A DNA stretch of 64,000 nt from Nitrosopumilaceae archaeon (GCA_965214835.1 CBDCCK010000002.1:3136001-3200000), one strand, 5' to 3'; counted from the stretch's first letter, positions 29,871 to 40,041 are shown. Numbers and translations are program-made. Notes: generated by a model from the sequence alone, not told the origin.

Positions 29871-30908
29871 CTACATTTTTGGATCTATGCCCCTGGCCAT
29901 GCGTAGCGCGTCGACTAGGCCGTCTGCATACCCTATGCTCAGGACTGCAACCTCGTCTTTTCCCTCCTGCAAGAACAGCTCCGCGTCCCTGATGTACAGC
30001 TCCGCGTTCTCTATGACCGGCCCAAACTCCTTTGAGCCCTCATAATGCGGCGCGATCTCCTTCAGCGCCTCTCTGACCATCGGGACATATTTTTCGATCA
30101 TTTGCGAGGAGATCTTTTTTGCAGCATCCGAGTTGTTGCAAGGCTCATCCAAGCACCGCGTCAGCGCCCTCAGCGCGTCGGCCTCCGTAAAGTGCATCCT
30201 GCCCGGGATGATTATTGCATGCGGGGGGCCTCCAAAGTCCGTCTCTGCCAGCCTGGAGACCCTGCCCGATATGATGCCCTGATCCCTGAGCCCGATCCGC
30301 GACGCCACTATTGCAAACGTCTCTGAGCCGATCACCTTCCGCATCTGGCCCCGCTCTGCCCCCAGAAGGTGCCCCAGCGCCGTTTTTGGATCCAAAAAGA
30401 GATCCCTGTCCTGGTCGTACTCTAGCAGCAGTACGGTGTGGTTTCCCTCAATGAGGTTCCTATATACTATGTAGTATGGCGTAGTCACCGACGCGGGATC
30501 ATCCATGACCGTTGCAATGCGTCCGACCTTGTAGTAGTGTAGGCCGCATTCCCCTATCATGGAGGTGATCGACGAGGCGCCGTGGACCGTGCCGGTCTTG
30601 ATTCTGCCCTCCAGCGCTCTGATCCTCAGCTCCACGTGCGTGGTCGCAATGTACGGATCCCCGTATGACAGCAGGGCGACCTTTTTCACTTTTGCGTTTT
30701 TTAGGATCTCGCCTCCGTCCTCGACCGTCCACCTTCTTGCAAGCCTGAACTCCCCCCTGACATGCTTTTTTATCCTCGAGAGCTCCGCCTTGGCGACAGG
30801 ACTGGTAAACTGCTCCAGGTATACGAGATCTGCCTCCTCGATTATCCTCAAGCCCTCAACGGGGATCGAGTCATAGCCTGAAATCCCGGTTCCGACAAAC
30901 CAGAGCAT
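29871..30908 (-). CDS. dph5: Diphthine synthase with C-terminal DUF357-like domain
   Basis: MLWFVGTG, YLEQFTS, GDPYIATTH, GLHYYKVG; C-terminal IGYADGLVDAL. Confidence 0.92.
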   Translation of the reverse strand: MLWFVGTGISGYDSIPVEGLRIIEEADLVYLEQFTSPVAKAELSRIKKHVRGEFRLARRWTVEDGGEILKNAKVKKVALLSYGDPYIATTHVELRIRALEGRIKTGTVHGASSITSMIGECGLHYYKVGRIATVMDDPASVTTPYYIVYRNLIEGNHTVLLLEYDQDRDLFLDPKTALGHLLGAERGQMRKVIGSETFAIVASRIGLRDQGIISGRVSRLAETDFGGPPHAIIIPGRMHFTEADALRALTRCLDEPCNNSDAAKKISSQMIEKYVPMVREALKEIAPHYEGSKEFGPVIENAELYIRDAELFLQEGKDEVAVLSIGYADGLVDALRMARGIDPKM

Positions 30909-32038
30909 TATTTCCTCTGCATCTTTTTGTCGTGAAGTCGCTTGAGGTGCTGCAGCGTCCTTTTGAGCACCTCGATTCCCCGGAGATACTCGTCAATGGA
31001 GACCCTCTCGTCAACCGTATGCGCCTGGTGCGGATCCCCCGGGCCGTATGTTACCACCGGAATGTTCAACTGGTTGCCGATTACGTTCATGTCCCCGGTT
31101 CCCGTCTTTCTGATCAGCATGGGCCTCGTGTCCTCCACATCTAGGATTCCCAGGGTGAACGCGCGAACCAGGGGCGAGCTGTGCGGTGCCTCGAAGGGCT
31201 CGGTCTCATCCAGTATAGAGTAAAACGCCTCTACCTCCCTCTCCCTTGCAATCTCGCTTACCGCGCCTGCGATTTTTTCCTCCACTGCCTTGCAGTTCAT
31301 GTCGACGGGGATCCGGATGTCCACAGTCGTCTCGCATTCTTTGGGCGTTACATTGTGGCTGGTTCCTCCCTTGATCTCGGTTATGGTGGCAGTCAGCAGC
31401 ATGCCCTTTTTGCGATCTGCCTGGCCGGACTCTAGCGCGTCCTTGAGCCTTGCTGCAAACAGGGCGGACTCTTCGATTGCGTTTTTTGCCAGCCACGGCG
31501 CGCTGGCATGCGCGCTGTCCCCCACACTGATCCGCAGGCTGATTGCCAGGCGCCCCTTGTATGCAATCGTGACCTGCTTTAGCCCGCTTGGCTCCCCAAA
31601 AATGGCATAATCGACGTCCAGATCCTGCTTTACTAGGTTCTTGATGCCGGCCGCGTTTCCCTCCTCGTCCACTGCGCCAACAAACAATACCGTCCCGCTG
31701 TTGTTCTGTACTGCGGCTGCGGCAAACAGCATTGCCATCAGCGGCGCCTTTGCATCCGAGGCCCCCCTGCCGTAAAGGACGTCCCCCTCCCTCCTTACCC
31801 TGATCTTACCGGGCACTACGTCCATGTGTCCGCACAGCATGATCTTAGGCGAGCCCGAGCCCTTTCTTGCCAGGATGTTTCCCACCTCGTCAATCCTTAT
31901 GTCCTCAAAGCCCAGATCGTCACACTTGTCTGCAAGAAACTCCGCCATCGGCTTTTCACAGAGTGACGGCGTGTACAGGCGAAGGGACTTTTCAAGCATC
32001 TTTACTGCGAATCTGGGAGTTACGGCAAAGGTGTCCAA
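30908..32038 (-). CDS. lysK: [LysW]-lysine/ornithine hydrolase (M20)
   Basis: CGHMDVVPG, GRGASDAK, DEEG, GEPSG, GTGDMN; in LysW cluster. Confidence 0.9.
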   Translation of the reverse strand: MDTFAVTPRFAVKMLEKSLRLYTPSLCEKPMAEFLADKCDDLGFEDIRIDEVGNILARKGSGSPKIMLCGHMDVVPGKIRVRREGDVLYGRGASDAKAPLMAMLFAAAAVQNNSGTVLFVGAVDEEGNAAGIKNLVKQDLDVDYAIFGEPSGLKQVTIAYKGRLAISLRISVGDSAHASAPWLAKNAIEESALFAARLKDALESGQADRKKGMLLTATITEIKGGTSHNVTPKECETTVDIRIPVDMNCKAVEEKIAGAVSEIAREREVEAFYSILDETEPFEAPHSSPLVRAFTLGILDVEDTRPMLIRKTGTGDMNVIGNQLNIPVVTYGPGDPHQAHTVDERVSIDEYLRGIEVLKRTLQHLKRLHDKKMQRK

Positions 32039-32040
32039 CT

Positions 32041-32892
32041 TTATCCCTCCGAGCCCAGCGCATAGTCGATCATCATCGAGGGAATGTCCACCTCGCAGAC
32101 CCTGACGGTGTTCTTGTACTCTGTCGTGTTGTTTACCTCGTGTACCACCAGTCCCCTCTCGTCGCTCTCCATCAGATCCACGCCCACTATCTGTCCCTGG
32201 ACTGCGTTTTTGGCCTTGACACATATATCTTCCATCTCCCCCGTGACCGGGCAGGGCTCGGCCCTTCCCCCCAGCGCCATGTTGGTCTTCCAGTTGCCGT
32301 CGCCTGAGTTGCGGTATATTGCGGCGGCAACCTCGTCTCCCACCATGATGGCCCTGATGTCCCGGGGCGGCCTTTGGACGAACTCCTCCAGGTAGTGGAT
32401 CTGGTAGATCGGGTACATTTTTTCCCGGCCCTCGATGATTCCGTCGGCCGCCTCCCTGTCGTTTAGCTTGGAGATCAGCCTGCCCCAGCTTCCCACCGTC
32501 GGCTTGATTACCATCGGATATCCCTGCGAGTCAAGGGAGTCCAGCGCCGCATCCTTTGAGAATGCCACTGAGGCATACGGCGTGGGAACCCCGGACTTTT
32601 TTAGCAGCATGTGTGTGAACAGCTTGTTTCCTGCAAAGATTCCCGTGTTCAGGCAGTTAATCACGTTTACTCCCATGCCCTCCAGTGCCGCCGTCGAGTG
32701 CAGGTTTCTGTAATAGCTTACGCACCTTTGGAGGACCGGGCCATAGTCGTCTGGGACTTTTTTGTCCAGCTCCAGGGACAGTTTTTTGCAGTCTATGGCC
32801 CGTATGCCGACGTCCTTTTTCCTGCCGGCCTCCAAGAGGGCCTTTTCCTCCCATCGGATTGTATCATAAAGGACAGAGACTCCAGCGGTCAC
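32041..32892 (-). CDS. lysX: RimK/LysX-family ATP-grasp ligase
   Basis: IKPTVGSWGR, RDIR, WKTNMALGG, HEVNNTTEYK; GTG overlaps lysW stop. Confidence 0.9.
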   Translation of the reverse strand: MTAGVSVLYDTIRWEEKALLEAGRKKDVGIRAIDCKKLSLELDKKVPDDYGPVLQRCVSYYRNLHSTAALEGMGVNVINCLNTGIFAGNKLFTHMLLKKSGVPTPYASVAFSKDAALDSLDSQGYPMVIKPTVGSWGRLISKLNDREAADGIIEGREKMYPIYQIHYLEEFVQRPPRDIRAIMVGDEVAAAIYRNSGDGNWKTNMALGGRAEPCPVTGEMEDICVKAKNAVQGQIVGVDLMESDERGLVVHEVNNTTEYKNTVRVCEVDIPSMMIDYALGSEG

Positions 32893-33056
32893 TGCCCCCA
32901 ATCCTCGCCGACCGTTTGGGCAGGCTTTAACTCAAAACCGTCTCCTGACTTTGCAAGCTCAAAGCTTGCGCCGCATTCCGGGCAGGTAACGATTTCCCCC
33001 TCTAGCGCATCGCCTGGGATTGAAATTGCCGCGTCGCATTCGTCACAAGTTGCCAT
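32889..33056 (-). CDS. lysW: LysW carrier protein ending EDWGQ
   Basis: MATCDECDAAISIPGDALEGEIVTCPECGASFELAKSGDGFELKPAQTVGEDWGQ; manual translation. Confidence 0.92.
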   Translation of the reverse strand: MATCDECDAAISIPGDALEGEIVTCPECGASFELAKSGDGFELKPAQTVGEDWGQ

Positions 33057-33067
33057 GCTGTATCTCC

Positions 33068-34243
33068 TTACTGACCGTGTTTGTCATCACTTATCTTCTT
33101 TTCTAGCCTGTCCTCTAGCGGGATTTCCAAAAGATCGCCCATCCTCAGGTTCTTCAGGCCCGCCGCAATGGATCTTGCATGCTCGTCATTTTTGTCCAGC
33201 CCCAGCAGCGTCATCAGGTAGGACGCGCCCGTCTTTCCGGCAAGCTCCCCAAATACAATCCTCCTCCTGTTGCCTACCACCCTCGGGGGAATCGGCTCAT
33301 ACGCTGCCGGGTTTCTCAGGATTGCGGCAAGATGCGTGCCTGCCTTGTGCTTGTATGCCGACATGCCCACGACCGGCTTTGAGTCATATGGCCTGACTGT
33401 GGTGTACTCCTCAATCAGCCTTGAGAGATCCTGCAGCATGTCCAGCCTAAAGTCGTTTGGCGACTTGTAGAGGTATGTCAGTGCGACTGCCACCTCCGCC
33501 AGCGCGGGAATTCCAGTCCTCTCCCCGATTCCGTCGATGGTCGTGTGGATCTGATCGGCGCCCGCATCGCATGCAGCAAATGCGTTTGCCAGCGCAAAGC
33601 CGATGTCGTTGTGCACGTGTGCGTCAAGCGGAACGTCGATTACGCCCCTCACCTTCTTGACAAAGTTGTACATTCCAACGGGCCTCATAATCCCCACGGT
33701 ATCCGGAAGGCTGATTCGATCCACCCCTGCATCCTCAAGCGCGCTGCATACTTTAAGCAGGAATTCCGGCTCCGCCCTGCTTCCGTCCTCGACGGTGAAT
33801 CTGATCCTCAGCCCGTGCGACTTTGCGTACTCTACCGTCCCGACCGCCCTCTCCAGCGCCTCCTCCCTTGAGATCCGGAGCTTGTCCCTGAGGTGTATGT
33901 CAGAGACCCCCAGGTATGCGGCGGCCCACTTTGTATCGCACCTCAGCGTTGTGTCTATGTCCTCCCTGAGCGCCCTCCCGTGCGAGACAATGTCTGCGCG
34001 CAGGCCCTGCCGGATTATTGTCTTGGTCGCCTCCTCGTGATCCTTGGAGACTATGGGGGAGATCTCGATTTGATCAACTCCGAAATAGTCCAGCATCCAC
34101 GCAATCTGTATCCTCTGCTTGTTGGTAAACGACACTCCCGGGTGCTGCTCGCCCTCGCGCAGCGTGCTGTCAAGCACCCTGATCCTTTTTGGATTCTCGT
34201 CATACCCGTTGTACAGGTCTGCATAGTGGTTTGGCTCCATCAT
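33068..34243 (-). CDS. Homocitrate synthase (DRE-TIM family)
   Basis: DSTLREGEQ, HVHNDIG, GIGERTG, HKAGTH; inside Lys/Arg cluster. Confidence 0.85.
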   Translation of the reverse strand: MMEPNHYADLYNGYDENPKRIRVLDSTLREGEQHPGVSFTNKQRIQIAWMLDYFGVDQIEISPIVSKDHEEATKTIIRQGLRADIVSHGRALREDIDTTLRCDTKWAAAYLGVSDIHLRDKLRISREEALERAVGTVEYAKSHGLRIRFTVEDGSRAEPEFLLKVCSALEDAGVDRISLPDTVGIMRPVGMYNFVKKVRGVIDVPLDAHVHNDIGFALANAFAACDAGADQIHTTIDGIGERTGIPALAEVAVALTYLYKSPNDFRLDMLQDLSRLIEEYTTVRPYDSKPVVGMSAYKHKAGTHLAAILRNPAAYEPIPPRVVGNRRRIVFGELAGKTGASYLMTLLGLDKNDEHARSIAAGLKNLRMGDLLEIPLEDRLEKKISDDKHGQ

Positions 34244-34358
34244 ACAGATATCGGTGCCAGGCCTTTGAAATATAAACATAATTGTGCCAAATTCGCCGGT
34301 ATTTCGCCAAAACGATCCGAATACAGGCAAAAAACATGGGTCGCATGCGATACTCGTC

Positions 34359-34778
34359 TTACTTTACCTTTCTTAGGATTATCACGGTATTGGTATCCAT
34401 AACGCCCGAGATTTTTCTTAGCGCGTCAATCGAGGAGTTGATCTCAGAGATGCTCGTGGCGCTAATGATTACCGTGATGTCATACTGCCCCGTGATTTCA
34501 TAGACCGTCTTTACGCCGTCTAGCGCCGTAAGCTTTGAGGATACCTTTGCAGTGTCCGTTGACGAGTCTACGGAGACCAGGACGATGGCGCTAGTCGCGT
34601 TCTCCTCGCCCAGCTCAATCGTGAACTTGCTGATGGTGTTGTTGTCTACAAGGTTTTTTACCCTCCGCCTGACTGCCGATTCTGAGAGCTTTAGCCTCTT
34701 GCCTATATCCACAAACGACTCCCGTGAGTCGTTTTTCAGGTATCCGATGATTCTCTCGTCGATCTTATCCTTGTACAC
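34359..34778 (-). CDS. lysM: Lrp/AsnC regulator LysM
   Basis: LSESAVRRRVKNL HTH, VYEITGQYDI. Confidence 0.88.
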   Translation of the reverse strand: MYKDKIDERIIGYLKNDSRESFVDIGKRLKLSESAVRRRVKNLVDNNTISKFTIELGEENATSAIVLVSVDSSTDTAKVSSKLTALDGVKTVYEITGQYDITVIISATSISEINSSIDALRKISGVMDTNTVIILRKVK

Positions 34779-35946
34779 TTTTCCTCTGCTCCTCGTTGGC
34801 AAATAACACGTCCAGTATTTCTAAAGCTTTCGACACGTCCTCTTCTGTGATTACCAGCGGCGGGAGCAGCCGGAGTATGTTGCGCCCAGAGTAGAGTAGC
34901 ATCAGCCCGCGGTTTATCCCGTCAAGCAAAATATCCCTGACATCGAGTTTCAGCTCTACTCCGATCATCAGTCCCTTGCCCCTTACCTCCCTGATCAGGT
35001 CGTGTCTCTCCTGCAGCCCCCGGAGCCCCTCCATGAGCCTGTCCCCCATCCGCTCCGAGTTCCCGATCAGCCCGTCCTGCGTGATTGCCGTCAGTGCTGC
35101 AGTTCCTGCCGCACAGGACAGCGGGTTGCCCCCGAAGGTCGACGAGTGCTCGCCCTTTTTCATTGCGCTCAGAATTTCAGACCTTACCAGCGTCGCCCCC
35201 ATCGGAACCCCGCCTGCGATTCCCTTTGCCAGGCACAGTATGTCCGGAACCGTCTGCCAGTGCTCTGAGGCCCACAGCCGGCCCGTCCTTCCCAGTCCCG
35301 CCTGGATCTCGTCAAAGATCAGCAGGATCCCCTTCTCGTCGCAAATCCTCCTTGCCTCCTGTAAGAACCCGTCCGGCGCGACGTGGATTCCGCTCTCTCC
35401 CTGTATCGGCTCCATTATGACAAAGCCGGTCTCCTCGGTGACTGCGTCCCTTAGCGCGCCTGCATCCCCAAACGGGGTAAATTGCGGCGCCTCTACGAGG
35501 GGTGCGAATGCCTTTTTGTACTTTGGGTTAAATGTCAGCGATAGCGCCCCCATGGACTTTCCGTGGTAGGATCCCCTCATGGCTATCATGCCTTTTTTGC
35601 CGGTATACCTTCGCGCAAACTTTAGCGCCGCCTCAATGGCCTCGGCGCCGCTGTTGTTGAGATGGACCTGATCCAGTCCCTTTGGTGCAAGCCCCATCAG
35701 CGTCTCAAGGAACTCCTCGCGCGTCTTGTTGTAGACGGAGCTGTGTACCGTGATGATTTTGTCCAGCTGCTCCCTGATTGCGTCGGCCACCCTCTGGTTT
35801 TTGTGTCCGACTAGGGCGACCCCGTATCCCCCCATGCAGTCGACGTACTCCCTGCCGTCTGCATCCCACAGGCGGGCCCCAAGGCCCCTCTCCACCGTAA
35901 CCGGGAAGCGCTGGTACAGGTTTCCCATGTATTGATCCTCAGTCAT
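34765..35946 (-). CDS. lysJ: [LysW]-semialdehyde aminotransferase
   Basis: NSGAEA, EPIQGE, DEIQAG, LAKGIAGG, TFGGNP. Confidence 0.92.
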   Translation of the reverse strand: MTEDQYMGNLYQRFPVTVERGLGARLWDADGREYVDCMGGYGVALVGHKNQRVADAIREQLDKIITVHSSVYNKTREEFLETLMGLAPKGLDQVHLNNSGAEAIEAALKFARRYTGKKGMIAMRGSYHGKSMGALSLTFNPKYKKAFAPLVEAPQFTPFGDAGALRDAVTEETGFVIMEPIQGESGIHVAPDGFLQEARRICDEKGILLIFDEIQAGLGRTGRLWASEHWQTVPDILCLAKGIAGGVPMGATLVRSEILSAMKKGEHSSTFGGNPLSCAAGTAALTAITQDGLIGNSERMGDRLMEGLRGLQERHDLIREVRGKGLMIGVELKLDVRDILLDGINRGLMLLYSGRNILRLLPPLVITEEDVSKALEILDVLFANEEQRKSVQG

Positions 35947-36745: not shown

Positions 36746-37792
36746 CTATACCGGCGTCAGGGGCGTATACCGCAGTCCGTCCATCTCGTCGAATCCTGCC
36801 ATGACATTCATGTTTTGAATGGCAGAGCCTGCGGCGCCCTTCATCAGGTTGTCTGATGCCGAGATTGCAACTAGCCTGCCGTTGTCCTCGTCCAGGTCAA
36901 ATCCTATATCGCAAAAGTTTGAGCCCACTAGGAACTTTGGATCCGGGAATTTGTAAAGTCCTTTTTTATCACGTATGAGGCGCACAAACCTCTCCTCGCC
37001 GTAGGCCCTGCGGTATAGCCTCCATATCTCCTTTTCATCCATGTCCCCGTCTACAAACGTGTGGTTGGTGCAAAGGATTCCCCTCACTACGTCCACGGCA
37101 TGGGGGCTCATTGAGACCTTGATGTCCCTGCCTGCAATCTCGCTTAGCTCCTGCTCGATTTCCCCGGTATGCCTGTGCTTTGCCGGCTTGTATGGACGGA
37201 TTACGCCTGCCCTCATTGCATGCGCCGTACCGGAGCCCGAGCCTGCGCCAGACGAGCCGATCTTTGAGTCAACGACAATGTGATCGGTGTCGATTAGATT
37301 TTCCCTGACCAGCGGGGCCAGTGCGAGCATCGAGGTCACGGCCATGCATCCCGGGCATGAGACCAGCCGTGCTTTTTTGATTTCCTCCCTGTGCAGTTCC
37401 GGAACGCCGAAGACCGACTTTGGCAGATAGTCGGGGTGCGGATGCTCCCATCCATACCACTTGTCGTATGCCTCCGGCCTGTGCAGCCTGTAATCCGCAC
37501 TGAGATCGATGATTTTGACCCCCCTGTCATACAACGCCTTTACGATTTCCGTGGCAGTGCCGTGTGGGACAGCGGTGAAGACCAGGTCGCAGCTGTCCGA
37601 GAGCCTGTCATAGTCCAGCTCCGAGAAGGTCATATCCGTAAAGCCCTTCAGGCTAGGCTGCACCCTGTGAAGATACTCCCCCACATGCTGCCTTGAGGTC
37701 ACCGCCGTGATCTCTGCCTTTGGGTGGTTTATCAGGAGGCGCAGCGTCTCTCCGCCCACGTAACCTGATGCCCCGACGACGCCTACCTTCAT
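36746..37792 (-). CDS. lysY: [LysW]-phosphate reductase (LysY/ArgC)
   Basis: GASGYVGGE, DLSADYRL, SCPGC, DNLMKGAAG. Confidence 0.92.
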   Translation of the reverse strand: MKVGVVGASGYVGGETLRLLINHPKAEITAVTSRQHVGEYLHRVQPSLKGFTDMTFSELDYDRLSDSCDLVFTAVPHGTATEIVKALYDRGVKIIDLSADYRLHRPEAYDKWYGWEHPHPDYLPKSVFGVPELHREEIKKARLVSCPGCMAVTSMLALAPLVRENLIDTDHIVVDSKIGSSGAGSGSGTAHAMRAGVIRPYKPAKHRHTGEIEQELSEIAGRDIKVSMSPHAVDVVRGILCTNHTFVDGDMDEKEIWRLYRRAYGEERFVRLIRDKKGLYKFPDPKFLVGSNFCDIGFDLDEDNGRLVAISASDNLMKGAAGSAIQNMNVMAGFDEMDGLRYTPLTPV

Positions 37793-37820
37793 GATATACT
37801 CCACCGATATGCAGTATAAT

Positions 37821-38678
37821 TTATTTCCTGACCTGGGATAGGGCGTACTGTACCATTTCCTTTGGTATGTTCCTTTTGGAGACTCTTGCAAGTCCTTTGA
37901 ACTCCACCGTATTGTTTACCTCGTGTACTACAAGTCCCCGATCCCCGTCCTCCATCATGTCTACTCCCAGGATTCCCCCGCCTACCGCCTCTGACGCCCT
38001 TATTGCAAGATCCTCCAGCTCCGGCGTGACCGGGCACATCTCGGGCTCTGCGCCCAATGCGATGTTTGTGGTAAACCCACCCTCGGATCTCCTATACATT
38101 GCCGAGACCACCTGGTCTCCCACCGTAACTGCCCTGATGTCCCTGGGTGGCCTCTGAATGATTTCCTGCAGGTAAAAGATTCTATCGTGCGGGCCGTCAT
38201 TGATTTCCCGCATTTCAAGCACCGCATCCGTGGTGTCCGCGTCCCTCAGCGGGACGACTCCCCGTCCCCAGCTTCCGATCACCGGCTTTATCACCAGCGG
38301 ATACCCGACCCTTTCCAGGTTCTCCTTTGCCGCGCTGGCAGTAAATGAAAAGTATGTCTTGGGCGTCGGGACGCCCCCCTTCTTTAGCAGCAGCGACATG
38401 AACATCTTGTTTCCGCAGCTGCTTGCAACGGCGAAGCTGTTGACCACAGGAACCCCGAGAAACTCCAGCGCCGATGTGAAATGCAGTCCCCGGAAATAGC
38501 TGACACACCTTTCCAAGACGACGTCCCCGAAATCAAAGTCGTCCCTTTTGCTGTCCGTGCTGATTTGCGTGGTTTTGGCGTCAATTGCCCCCGTATCGTG
38601 CCCAAGCCCCAGGGCCTCCTTCTGAAGCATCTTCTCCTCAGACCTCAGCCGGTCAAACACGATGCGGACCCTTGACAT
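37821..38678 (-). CDS. argX: Second LysX-family ligase (ArgX-like)
   Basis: KPVIGSWGR, TNIALG, HEVNNTVEFKG; downstream of the EDWGE carrier and argG. Confidence 0.8.
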   Translation of the reverse strand: MSRVRIVFDRLRSEEKMLQKEALGLGHDTGAIDAKTTQISTDSKRDDFDFGDVVLERCVSYFRGLHFTSALEFLGVPVVNSFAVASSCGNKMFMSLLLKKGGVPTPKTYFSFTASAAKENLERVGYPLVIKPVIGSWGRGVVPLRDADTTDAVLEMREINDGPHDRIFYLQEIIQRPPRDIRAVTVGDQVVSAMYRRSEGGFTTNIALGAEPEMCPVTPELEDLAIRASEAVGGGILGVDMMEDGDRGLVVHEVNNTVEFKGLARVSKRNIPKEMVQYALSQVRK

Positions 38679-38845
38679 TACTCTCCCCAGTCTTCGCCTA
38701 CGCTTTCTGCTTCCTTTAGCTCCACGCTGGATCCTTGCTTCTTTGCGATCTCATAGTCTGCACCGCAGTCCGGGCAGGATACGATCTCGCCTACGGCTGC
38801 GTCATCTGGGATTGCCATATCTGCGTCACATTCTGGACAGTTCAT
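38678..38845 (-). CDS. lysW: LysW/ArgW carrier protein ending EDWGE
   Basis: MNCPECDADMAIPDDAAVGEIVSCPDCGADYE...VGEDWGE; manual translation. Confidence 0.93.
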   Translation of the reverse strand: MNCPECDADMAIPDDAAVGEIVSCPDCGADYEIAKKQGSSVELKEAESVGEDWGE

Positions 38846-40041
38846 GCTTTTGTTCGCCTTTTCTTTTGTAATTTATTAGCTTCTGTTGTCTGGATTCCCC
38901 ACAGTTCCACGAATCCCTTGGCCAGCCTCTGGTCAAACGTGGAGTCCTTTCCATATGTTGCGGTCCTGTGGCTGTAAAGCGAGTTACTTGACTTTCTGCC
39001 TGCCACCCTCACTCCTCCCCCGAATAGCTTGAGCCTGACCCTGCCGGTGACCGTACTCTGGGCCCGCTCTATGAACCCGTCTAGATCCGCACGAAGCGGA
39101 TCCTCCCAGAGTCCCGAGTACACCAACCAGGCCCACTCGTCGTCGATGACGGGCTTTAGCTTGTTTTGGTGCTTGGTATGGACCATCTTCTCCAAGTCCG
39201 CATGTGCCTCAATCAGGCACGTGGCCGCAGGCGTCTCGTACACCTCGCGGGACTTTATCCCCACCACCCTGTCCTCGATATGATCAGCGATTCCAACTCC
39301 CGCATCTCCTGCCTTCCTGTTAAGATGCTCAATCAGCCTGACAGGCTCCAGTCTTTTTCCGTCGACGGCGACCGGAACCCCCTTTTGAAAGTCTATTTCT
39401 ATGTATGTAGGCCTGTCTGGAAGATTTTTTGTCCTTACCCAGATGAATGCGTCGTCTGGCGGCTCGTTGAGGGGATCCTCCAACACTCCCCCCTCTATTG
39501 CACGCCCCCAGAGGTTTTGGTCAATGCTGAATTTTTTTGCAACGCTATCAATCCTGATCCCGTGCCTGCCTGCAAACTCCAGCTCCGTAGTCCTGTCCAG
39601 ATTCAAATCCCGAATCGGCGCAATTATTGGCAGGCTGGAGCCGGACATCAGGGTCAGATCAAAGCGCACCTGGTCATTTCCCTTGCCGGAGCATCCGTGT
39701 GCCAGTGCCGTGGCCTTTTCCTTCTTTGCGACTTCAAGTACCTTGCTTGCGATTAGCGGCCGCGCAAGCGCCGTTGCCAGGCAGTATTTTTTCTGGTATA
39801 ATGCGTTTGCCTTGATTGACGGATGGATATATTCCCTGACAAACTCCTTTCGTGAGTCAATCGTATGGTGGCTTTTGACGCCAAGCCGCCTTGCCTTTTG
39901 CGCAATTGTCTTATAGTCGTCTTGCTGGCCCACATCCACCGTAACTGTGACCACGTCCATGTCATGGTTTTCCTGCAGGTACTTGACGACCACCGATGTA
40001 TCCAGTCCTCCGGAGAATGCCAGTACCGCTTTTTCAGTCAT
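38842..40041 (-). CDS. argG: Argininosuccinate synthase
   Basis: LAFSGGLDTS, AHGCSGKGNDQVRF, GIKSREVYE. Confidence 0.97.
   Translation of the reverse strand: MTEKAVLAFSGGLDTSVVVKYLQENHDMDVVTVTVDVGQQDDYKTIAQKARRLGVKSHHTIDSRKEFVREYIHPSIKANALYQKKYCLATALARPLIASKVLEVAKKEKATALAHGCSGKGNDQVRFDLTLMSGSSLPIIAPIRDLNLDRTTELEFAGRHGIRIDSVAKKFSIDQNLWGRAIEGGVLEDPLNEPPDDAFIWVRTKNLPDRPTYIEIDFQKGVPVAVDGKRLEPVRLIEHLNRKAGDAGVGIADHIEDRVVGIKSREVYETPAATCLIEAHADLEKMVHTKHQNKLKPVIDDEWAWLVYSGLWEDPLRADLDGFIERAQSTVTGRVRLKLFGGGVRVAGRKSSNSLYSHRTATYGKDSTFDQRLAKGFVELWGIQTTEANKLQKKRRTKA

What the first reader, a model, noticed from the sequence alone, without database searches (positions are those of the whole stretch)
32041..33056. 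LysW carrier ending in Gln (EDWGQ) coupled to its own LysX
Seen: two LysW/LysX pairs; the argG-side carrier ends EDWGE, the homocitrate-synthase-side carrier ends EDWGQ (CAG TGA, overlapping the lysX GTG). Knowledge: LysX/ArgX ligate aminoadipate or glutamate to the gamma-carboxyl of the terminal Glu, which Gln lacks. Inference: this carrier needs deamidation, uses the alpha-carboxyl, or has a non-carrier role while the EDWGE copy serves both pathways. I recall the Q variant in other Thaumarchaeota, which would make it a conserved, unexplained variant.
Basis: partly seen in the sequence, partly recalled or inferred. Interest (0 to 1): 0.7.

Follow-up and report, generated by a model that had tools for sequence, protein, structure and literature searches.

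The report
Lysine carrier protein ending in glutamine
A small carrier protein for lysine synthesis is encoded with a terminal glutamine where the textbook version needs a glutamate; this spelling is conserved in several archaeal lineages and is sometimes the only carrier present, so an undescribed activation step or chemistry must exist.

Summary
On the minus strand, lysW (32889..33056) ends GEDWGQ (CAG TGA) and overlaps the GTG of lysX. A second pair near argG ends GEDWGE. It is not a sequencing error: contigs from 4 runs of 2 studies are identical, and 113 of the 120 best homologs end in Q.

In 401 genomes of the class, a Q-ending motif occurs in f1 (Nitrosopumilaceae) 219/223, f3 (Nitrososphaera-like) 78/78, f2 6/10 and f5 1/4. 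It occurs in 0/85 genomes of 16 other families.

Q and E have swapped at least 9 times on both carrier paralogs. In 53/78 f3 genomes, every motif hit ends in Q. Caldarchaeum and two further families have one LysW, ending in Q, with two LysX-family ligases, no argJ and no lysA. So Q-ended carriers must work, and the "non-carrier" reading fails.

Only E or Q is seen at the terminus. A Natrinema E54A carrier is dead (PMC10433800). I therefore favour a Pup-like pro-carrier whose gamma-amide is converted once, by LysK, LysX or another amidase, over alpha-carboxyl ligation. No experiment exists. The searchable literature does not mention it.

The parts
32889..33056 (-). lysW, lysine-side amino-group carrier, 55 aa, zinc ribbon (CDEC...CPEC), ends GEDWGQ
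   Evidence: NF041070 87.8 bits against a cut-off of 75
32892..32894 (-). terminal Gln codon CAG, where characterised carriers have Glu. Its last base is the first base of the lysX GTG
   Evidence: identical in contigs of 4 runs from 2 studies
32041..32892 (-). lysX, ATP-grasp ligase, 283 aa from the GTG. It carries the GSWGR motif. Its specificity signature is I-I-M-NT, with N at Tt position 258 as in the LysX type
   Evidence: TIGR02144 312.8 bits against 275.6; alignment to PDB 1uc8/3vpd; motif definitions from PMC12998189 and PMC10433800
30908..32002 (-). lysK, M20 [LysW]-lysine/ornithine hydrolase and candidate gamma-amidase. The start is inferred at the Met where the HMM match begins. 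The mechanical ORF runs on to 32224
   Evidence: TIGR01902 262.3 bits against 163.1, matching residues 76-428 of the 438-aa ORF
33068..34330 (-). homocitrate/isopropylmalate-synthase family gene immediately upstream of lysW-Q
   Evidence: TIGR02146 364.5 bits, below its cut-off of 413.55; NF002085 406.9 bits
34359..34802 (-). LysM-like Lrp/AsnC regulator
   Evidence: NF040947 178.1 bits against a cut-off of 180
34765..35946 (-). lysJ/argD aminotransferase, the only copy in the cluster, presumably shared by both carriers
   Evidence: TIGR00707 413 bits
35943..36743 (-). lysZ/argB [LysW]-aminoadipate/[LysW]-glutamate kinase
   Evidence: NF010662 292.5 bits against 194
36746..37891 (-). lysY/argC reductase. 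The HMM match starts at residue 34 of the ORF
   Evidence: TIGR01850 406.8 bits
37821..38678 (-). argX-type LysX-family ligase. Its signature is V-M-I-GL, with G plus a hydrophobic residue at 258/259 as in the ArgX type
   Evidence: TIGR02144 299.5 bits. Signature read by eye against the alignment and the motif table
38678..38845 (-). second carrier (ArgW-type), 55 aa, ends GEDWGE
   Evidence: (NF041070 91.7 bits)
38842..40041 (-). argG-like gene (argininosuccinate synthase) upstream of the E-ended carrier
Evidence: ORF.

Best explanation
The Q-ended LysW is a working amino-group carrier that is translated as a pro-form. Its terminal gamma-carboxamide cannot be phosphorylated by the ATP-grasp ligase. 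It is therefore converted once to the reactive gamma-carboxyl or gamma-acyl-phosphate.

There are three candidate routes for that conversion:
- Hydrolysis by LysK, which already cleaves the gamma-glutamyl amide bond of LysW-Lys and LysW-Orn.
- Phosphate-assisted reversal inside LysX or ArgX.
- An unidentified amidase.

After the first LysK-catalysed release the carrier cycles as the ordinary Glu form. This parallels Pup, which in some actinobacteria is encoded with a C-terminal Gln and is deamidated by Dop before PafA ligates it through the gamma-carboxylate.

What is shown: the sequence, its conservation, its recurrence, and that Q-ended carriers are the only carriers in some genomes. What is inferred: that attachment still occurs at the gamma position, that a conversion takes place, and which enzyme performs it.
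For: 1. It must be a carrier.
- G159 (f3; 1 contig, 99% complete) has one LysW over the cut-off, and it ends in Q.
- G410 and G424 (Caldarchaeum by source names), G417 and G431 (f35) and G555 (f50) each have one LysW ending EDWGQ, inside lysZ-lysW-lysX-lysJ clusters.
- Across the 11 genomes checked, argJ was found in 0/11, lysA over its cut-off in 0/11, two or more LysX-family ligases in 10/11, and LysK in 11/11.
- In f3, 53 of 78 genomes show only Q-ended motif hits. This comes from comparing by hand. Six genomes were verified by sequence.

2. The side chain still matters.
- Of the 150 best representatives of a LysW profile, 124 carry the [DE][DE]W[GAS]x tail: 110 end in E, 14 in Q, and none in any other residue. 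Six further variants (EDFGE x2, ESWGE, EDWDE, EDYGE, ETWGE) end in E, and one (FDWGQ) ends in Q.
- K, A, G, V and D are also one mutation from Glu but are not seen.
- The Natrinema argW(E54A) strain is an arginine auxotroph (PMC10433800, passages).

3. Q and E interchange easily, with one shared set of downstream enzymes.
- There are at least 6 changes on the LysW-type paralog and at least 3 on the ArgW-type paralog within the order.
- There are at least 4 further origins outside the class.
- No LysX or ArgX alignment column tracks the carrier's terminus over 7 contrasts.

4. There is precedent. PupQ is deamidated by Dop using a catalytic phosphate (PMC8599861, introduction). The ligase PafA itself has depupylase and transfer activity (PMC5358908, abstract).

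5. lysK lies next to lysW-Q/lysX here and in G159, G184, G122, G156 and G399.
Against: - No deamidase is identified.
- The genome has no Dop/PafA (PF03136) or CheD (PF03975) homolog.
- From my own knowledge, M20 hydrolases normally bind a carboxylate on the leaving amine, which ammonia lacks.
- I know of no ATP-grasp enzyme shown to run the reverse amide-to-acyl-phosphate step.
- A mere pro-form gives no reason to keep Q. Yet 0 changes were seen at the first base of the Q codon in 78 Nitrosopumilaceae loci, where about 2.6 C/G changes would be expected at a neutral C/G site (P(0) about 0.08). That is weak and not significant.
- No mass-spectrometric or RNA evidence was available (one search listed no RNA run).
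- The primary structural papers on LysX/LysW were not held, so contacts of the terminal residue could not be checked.
Confidence: 0.58

Rival explanations
1. Alpha-carboxyl ligation. With Gln at the end, LysX phosphorylates the only free carboxylate, the alpha-carboxyl, and makes an ordinary peptide bond to aminoadipate, as RimK does on ribosomal protein S6. The Gln stays throughout the cycle, and LysK acts as a plain carboxypeptidase.
For: - LysX belongs to the RimK family of alpha-L-glutamate ligases (TIGR00768 274.8 bits; RimK structures among the PDB hits).
- The alpha-carboxylate is the only carboxylate on a terminal Gln.
- It would give a reason to retain Q (0 changes in 78 loci).
Against: - Only E or Q is found at the terminus. 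If the side chain were idle, other residues should appear.
- The Natrinema E54A carrier, which keeps its alpha-carboxylate, does not support growth (PMC10433800).
- One set of LysZ/Y/J/K here would have to accept both an alpha-linked and a gamma-linked intermediate.
- The terminus flipped at least 9 times in the order without any tracking change in LysX or ArgX.
Confidence: 0.18
2. Non-carrier or regulatory copy. In this genome the Q-ended protein cannot be loaded. It acts as a decoy or regulator of LysX, and the EDWGE copy serves both lysine and arginine synthesis.
For: - This genome does have an E-ended copy 5.8 kb away.
- In Sulfolobus one carrier serves both pathways (PMC12998189, introduction).
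Against: - Orthologs of this same paralog are the only carrier in G159 and G399.
- Both paralogs end in Q in G184, G122, G156, G185, G278, G333, G070, G153 and G208.
- Single Q-ended carriers exist in Caldarchaeum, f35 and f50.
- The gene keeps its translationally coupled position between homocitrate synthase and lysX, and scores above the LysW cut-off.
Confidence: 0.05
3. Other chemistry. The amide is used directly, for example as an imidoyl-phosphate or amidine intermediate, or an internal acidic residue of the EDWG tail is the attachment site in Q-ended carriers.
For: Nothing direct. It is simply not excluded by sequence data.
Against: I know of no precedent among ATP-grasp ligases. E51 and D52 are invariant in E-ended carriers too, so they do not distinguish the two forms.
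Confidence: 0.08
4. Sequencing or assembly error, or a private allele.
For: None.
Against: - Contigs of 4 runs from 2 studies are identical.
- 113 of the 120 best homologs end in Q.
- 305 of 401 genomes of the class carry the Q-ending motif.
Confidence: 0.005

Closest known systems
LysW/ArgW amino-group carrier proteins of Thermus thermophilus, Sulfolobus, Thermococcus kodakarensis and Natrinema gari
   Same: A zinc-ribbon protein of about 55 aa with an acidic tail. It is encoded directly upstream of a LysX-family ATP-grasp ligase that carries the GSWGR motif, in a cluster with lysZ/Y/J/K. It scores above the NCBIfam LysW cut-off.
   Different: The characterised carriers end EDWGE, and the gamma-carboxyl of that Glu is the attachment site (PMC10433800, passages). 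This one is encoded EDWGQ, which has no gamma-carboxyl.
Pup with a C-terminal Gln, deamidase/depupylase Dop and ligase PafA of actinobacteria
   Same: [quoted passage not shown] Some lineages encode Gln and others Glu at that position. In Pup the Gln form is deamidated by the same enzyme that later cleaves the gamma-glutamyl amide bond (PMC8599861, introduction).
   Different: There is no homology. LysW is a zinc ribbon, LysX is ATP-grasp rather than glutamine-synthetase-like, and LysK is an M20 metallohydrolase. The genome has no PF03136 homolog. Deamidation of LysW has not been shown.
RimK and ribosomal protein S6 (alpha-L-glutamate ligation)
   Same: LysX is a RimK-family enzyme. RimK acts on the C-terminal alpha-carboxylate of a protein (PMC10375531, abstract as listed).
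   Different: Characterised LysX and ArgX enzymes use the gamma-carboxyl. Use of the alpha-carboxyl by this LysX is only a rival hypothesis.

Membership tests
LysW/ArgW amino-group carrier protein (NCBIfam NF041070; Pfam PF21344) | Sequence match above the curated cut-off | tested here: met
   87.8 bits against a cut-off of 75, matching residues 2-55 of 55
LysW/ArgW amino-group carrier protein (NCBIfam NF041070; Pfam PF21344) | Zinc-ribbon Cys pairs | tested here: met
   C-x2-C and C-x2-C are invariant in the alignment of 17 carriers (C3, C6, C24, C27 in the numbering of the first sequence)
LysW/ArgW amino-group carrier protein (NCBIfam NF041070; Pfam PF21344) | C-terminal EDWGE motif whose terminal Glu supplies the gamma-carboxyl for attachment | tested here: not met
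   The encoded tail is EDWGQ. By sequence it is a homolog, but as encoded it does not meet the biochemical definition. I therefore file it as a variant, not as a standard member
LysW/ArgW amino-group carrier protein (NCBIfam NF041070; Pfam PF21344) | Encoded next to its LysX/ArgX ligase and the lysZ/Y/J/K set | tested here: met
   4-base overlap with lysX, lysK downstream, and lysJ/Z/Y within 5 kb
LysW/ArgW amino-group carrier protein (NCBIfam NF041070; Pfam PF21344) | Covalent loading with aminoadipate or glutamate | not testable with these tools
   Needs biochemistry or mass spectrometry
LysX (TIGR02144, RimK-family ATP-grasp ligase) | Match above the cut-off, and the GSWGR motif that recognises the carrier tail | tested here: met
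   312.8 bits against 275.6. GSWGR is present in the alignment to 1uc8 and 3vpd. The motif's role comes from PMC10433800
LysX (TIGR02144, RimK-family ATP-grasp ligase) | Five-residue specificity signature (LysX type F-I-T-NS, ArgX type I-Y-V-GF) | tested here: inconclusive
   The Q-side ligase reads I-I-M-NT and the E-side ligase reads V-M-I-GL. Only positions 258/259 clearly sort them as LysX-like and ArgX-like
Pup-type pro-form system (PupQ, Dop, PafA) | Gln encoded at the position of the ligation-competent C-terminal Glu | tested here: met
   This is a likeness in how it works, not membership
Pup-type pro-form system (PupQ, Dop, PafA) | Dop/PafA-family enzyme present | tested here: not met
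   PF03136: 0 matches in the 99.95%-complete genome, while the control genome Corynebacterium gave a hit

The most novel reading that the evidence does not exclude
The Gln form is never hydrolysed first. LysX or ArgX, with bound ADP and phosphate, reverses its own second half-reaction on the terminal carboxamide, with ammonia as the leaving amine. It then captures the resulting gamma-glutamyl phosphate with aminoadipate or glutamate. This is a Dop/PafA-like transamidation by an ATP-grasp enzyme. Freshly made carrier would be loaded without net ATP use, and Q would be a selected state rather than a tolerated one.
Probability: 0.15. Interest if true: 0.85.

Novelty: new variant of a known kind. 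Interest (0 to 1): 0.72.

Why it matters
In every characterised case, the LysW pathway is defined by attachment to the gamma-carboxyl of a C-terminal Glu. Here that residue is encoded as Gln in nearly all Nitrosopumilaceae, the main marine ammonia oxidisers. It is encoded as Gln on one or both carriers in Nitrososphaera-like genomes, and on the single carrier of Caldarchaeum.

So lysine synthesis, and in some lineages arginine synthesis as well, depends on a step that current pathway reconstructions omit. The published Nitrosopumilus maritimus model simply gap-fills the LysW route (PMC6038301).

The case is a second, independent example of the Pup Q/E dimorphism, in an unrelated carrier-ligase-hydrolase trio. 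It can be tested directly with cultured strains and a handful of recombinant proteins.

Tried and rejected
- **Sequencing error.** Rejected.
- **E copy serves both pathways.** Rejected as a general account.
- **Co-variation of LysX/ArgX with the carrier terminus.** Seven E-versus-Q contrasts gave no column with a consistent change. This is uninformative about which enzyme converts Q.
- **Test for selection on the Q codon.** In 78 Nitrosopumilaceae loci there were 0 changes at the codon's first base. The 64 four-fold sites averaged 14.5 changes, but C/G transversions averaged only 0.47 per site. That is about 2.6 when conditioned on C/G occupancy, giving P(0) about 0.08. Not significant, so no claim of selection is made.
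- **Known protein-glutamine deamidase families in the genome.** PF03136 and PF03975 each gave 0 matches.
- **RNA evidence.** No RNA holder was listed. All reads laid were contigs.
- **Pattern false positives.** The degenerate stop TRR also matches TGG. The second hit in G120 and the f30 and f37 hits (CAGTGG) are not termini. The Q hit in G437 and the DEWGQ hit in G460 were not confirmed as LysW.
- **Papers not held.** The primary papers PMC5076833, PMC4281745 and PMC4858999 were not held. Horie 2009 and Ouchi 2013 were not available either. What I say about them is recalled or taken from papers that cite them. They or their supplements could mention Gln-ended homologs. Supplements were not consulted.

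Full report
**What is in the window.**

On the minus strand the genes run as follows:
- argG (38842..40041)
- a 55-aa LysW-family carrier ending GEDWGE (38678..38845)
- a LysX-family ligase (37821..38678)
- lysY/argC, lysZ/argB and lysJ/argD
- a LysM-like regulator
- a homocitrate-synthase-family gene (33068..34330)
- a second 55-aa carrier ending GEDWGQ (32889..33056)
- lysX (32041..32892, GTG start overlapping the carrier's TGA)
- lysK (30908..about 32002)

Both carriers pass the NCBIfam LysW cut-off and both ligases pass the LysX cut-off. The 99.95%-complete genome has no third LysW.

I aligned the ligases to T. thermophilus LysX and read the published five-residue specificity signature (PMC12998189, section read). 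The ligase beside the Q carrier reads I-I-M-NT, with LysX-like N at position 258. The one beside the E carrier reads V-M-I-GL, with ArgX-like G plus a hydrophobic residue. This fits a lysine-side and an arginine-side pair, though only positions 258/259 are clear. Contigs from four runs of two studies reproduce the CAG codon exactly. One of those studies may be the window's source.

**How widespread the Q terminus is.**

Of the 120 best database homologs of the Q carrier, 113 end in Q (112 GEDWGQ, 1 GDDWGQ), 1 ends GEDWGE and 6 have unrelated tails.

I searched 401 genomes of the class (400 plus the window's own) for the EDWG[E/Q]-stop motif. 380 of them have a hit. The Q-only form of the motif is distributed as follows:

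| Family code | Genomes with a Q-ending hit |
|---|---|
| f1 | 219 of 223 |
| f3 | 78 of 78 |
| f2 | 6 of 10 (all six of genus g26) |
| f5 | 1 of 4 |
| 16 other families | 0 of 85 |

These tallies include five unpublished genomes: G132, G231, G282 and G326 in f1, and G364 in f3. Without them the counts are 215/219 and 77/77. Names attached to public contigs and proteins identify f1 as Nitrosopumilaceae and f3 as Nitrososphaera-like. Family and genus codes are the tool's own, and other groups are unnamed.

**Two paralogs, both of which flip.**

I extracted 100-odd carrier-ligase pairs from 66 genomes. They show two carrier paralogs in this order:
- A LysW type with the tail ...KPAQVVGEDWG-.
- An ArgW type with the tail ...KPAE.VGEDWG-.

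On a tree of the partner ligases the terminal residue changes at least six times on the LysW type. It is gained on the f1+f3 stem, in f2 g26 and in G174. It is lost in f3 g36, in G346 and in G131/G353.

It changes at least three times on the ArgW type. It is gained on the f3 stem and in G070/G153/G208. It is lost in G138/G170.

In genera g36 and g48 of f3 the pattern of this window is reversed: the ArgW type has Q and the LysW type has E. I compared and 13 genome by genome, by hand. In f3, 53 of 78 genomes have only Q-ended hits (30 with two hits, 23 with one), 25 have Q plus E, and none has E only. One f3 genome, G120, has a second "Q" hit that is a TGG false positive of the pattern.

**Q-ended carriers that stand alone.**

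- G159 (one contig, 99% complete) and G399 have a single LysW over the cut-off, ending in Q.
- Outside the class, a phylum-wide motif search followed by HMM searches and inspection found one LysW per genome, ending EDWGQ, in G410, G424 and G576 (f29), G417, G431, G570 and G621 (f35) and G555 (f50). These lie in lysZ-lysW-lysX-lysJ clusters.
- G545 (f55) has one Q-ended and one E-ended carrier.
- Source names place f29 in Candidatus Caldarchaeum, where 13 of 14 homologs end in Q.

I checked eleven genomes: G000, five from f3, two from f29, two from f35 and one from f50. argJ was found in 0 of 11. lysA was over its cut-off in 0 of 11, although the five f3 genomes have a sub-cut-off hit of 237-255 bits. 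Two or more LysX-family ligases were found in 10 of 11. LysK was found in 11 of 11, mostly beside lysX.

These genomes have the Sulfolobus arrangement of one carrier with LysX plus ArgX, except that the carrier ends in Gln. A Q-ended carrier must therefore be functional, unless these organisms are auxotrophs.

**What the terminus tolerates.**

A profile of 17 carriers, searched against 1.84 billion representatives, gave 1454 hits. The best 150 were visible. Among them:
- 124 have the [DE][DE]W[GAS]x tail: 110 end in E and 14 end in Q, from very different sequences. No other residue occurs.
- Seven more have variant tails. Six end in E and one (FDWGQ) ends in Q.
- The remaining 19 are fragments, read-throughs or unrelated.

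Lys, Ala, Gly, Val and Asp are also one mutation from Glu and are not seen. In Natrinema gari an E54A carrier gives arginine auxotrophy (PMC10433800, passages read). The side chain therefore still matters, and only the amide isostere of Glu is accepted.

**Mechanism.**

A carboxamide cannot form the acyl-phosphate that ATP-grasp ligases use. I considered three readings.

1. *Conversion of the gamma-amide.* The Gln is a pro-form that is converted once. After the first LysK-catalysed release the carrier is Glu anyway. LysK is the economical candidate, because its normal reaction is hydrolysis of a gamma-glutamyl amide on this very residue, and it is always present. LysX or ArgX is the bolder candidate, by analogy with Dop's phosphate-mediated deamidation and PafA's reverse activity (PMC8599861, introduction; PMC5358908, abstract). 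This reading explains several things: why a single nucleotide change has been viable so many times, why no ligase column co-varies with the terminus, why one set of LysZ/Y/J/K serves Q and E carriers side by side, and why only Q substitutes for E.

2. *Alpha-carboxyl ligation in the RimK manner.* This would explain why Q is retained. It fits poorly with the E/Q exclusivity, the E54A result and the repeated flips.

3. *A non-carrier role.* This is excluded as a general account by the genomes whose only carriers end in Q.

I put these at about 0.58, 0.18 and 0.05. The remainder goes to other chemistry.

**Points against my preferred reading.**

- No deamidase is identified.
- The genome lacks Dop/PafA and CheD homologs.
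- From my own knowledge, M20 enzymes usually need a carboxylate on the leaving amine.
- A pro-form gives no reason to keep Q. The hint of constraint is 0 changes in 78 loci where about 2.6 would be expected (P about 0.08), which is not significant.

**Novelty.**

The string EDWGQ occurs in 0 papers of the searchable library.
- "LysW" with "deamid" found one general review of modification sites. I saw only the listing.
- "Amino group carrier protein" with "C-terminal" and "glutamine" found one unrelated Streptomyces preprint. I saw only the listing.
- "LysW" with "Thaumarchaeota" found three papers. Of these I read passages of the N. maritimus metabolic model. It adopts the LysW route without comment on the terminus (PMC6038301).
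- The 2025 evolutionary study of the pathway contains neither "Gln" nor "glutamine" (PMC12998189).

The primary structural and discovery papers were not available, and supplements were closed, so a passing mention elsewhere cannot be excluded. I rate this a new variant of a known kind. It is a homolog of LysW that fails the family's defining residue as encoded.

**Verdict.**

The variant is real, conserved, recurrent and necessarily functional. Its activation chemistry is unknown and can be tested directly.

Noticed in passing
loci L010, L104-L107, L110, L111, L118, L119, L121 (genus g12 of f1): In all 10 genomes of genus g12 the ArgW-type carrier is not followed by a LysX-family gene, unlike in other genera. 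In three of them (G070, G153, G208) this detached carrier has switched from E to Q.
   Followed up: partly
G159:C1:2015167-2023134 and G399:C55 (f3 genera g27 and g42): These Nitrososphaera-like genomes have lost the ArgW-type carrier. G159 keeps two LysX-family ligases about 5 kb apart, and G399 showed only one. The single remaining carrier ends in Q.
   Followed up: partly
G156, G184, G399, G122, G159: All five f3 genomes checked have a lysA-like PLP decarboxylase scoring 237-255 bits, below the TIGR01048 cut-off of 297.9. The window's genome and the Caldarchaeum, f35 and f50 genomes have none. Whether it is a diaminopimelate decarboxylase was not examined.
   Followed up: no
protein P0144: A 1052-aa protein matches the LysW profile in 13 separate stretches, that is, a long array of LysW-like zinc ribbons. 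It lacks the EDWG tail.
   Followed up: no
window 33078..33115: In runs X5 and X6 extra short contigs pile up in the spacer between the homocitrate-synthase-family gene and lysW. One contig has a loose end at 33078. This suggests strain variants of that spacer in those samples.
   Followed up: no
window 30908..32224: The mechanical ORF for lysK is 438 aa and overlaps the end of lysX by 184 bases. The family match begins at residue 73-76, so the real start is probably the Met near 32002.
   Followed up: partly
whole genome G000: At 3.22 Mb the genome is large for Nitrosopumilaceae, where most sampled genomes are 1.1-2.5 Mb. Its genus g1 spans 1.6-4.3 Mb.
   Followed up: no
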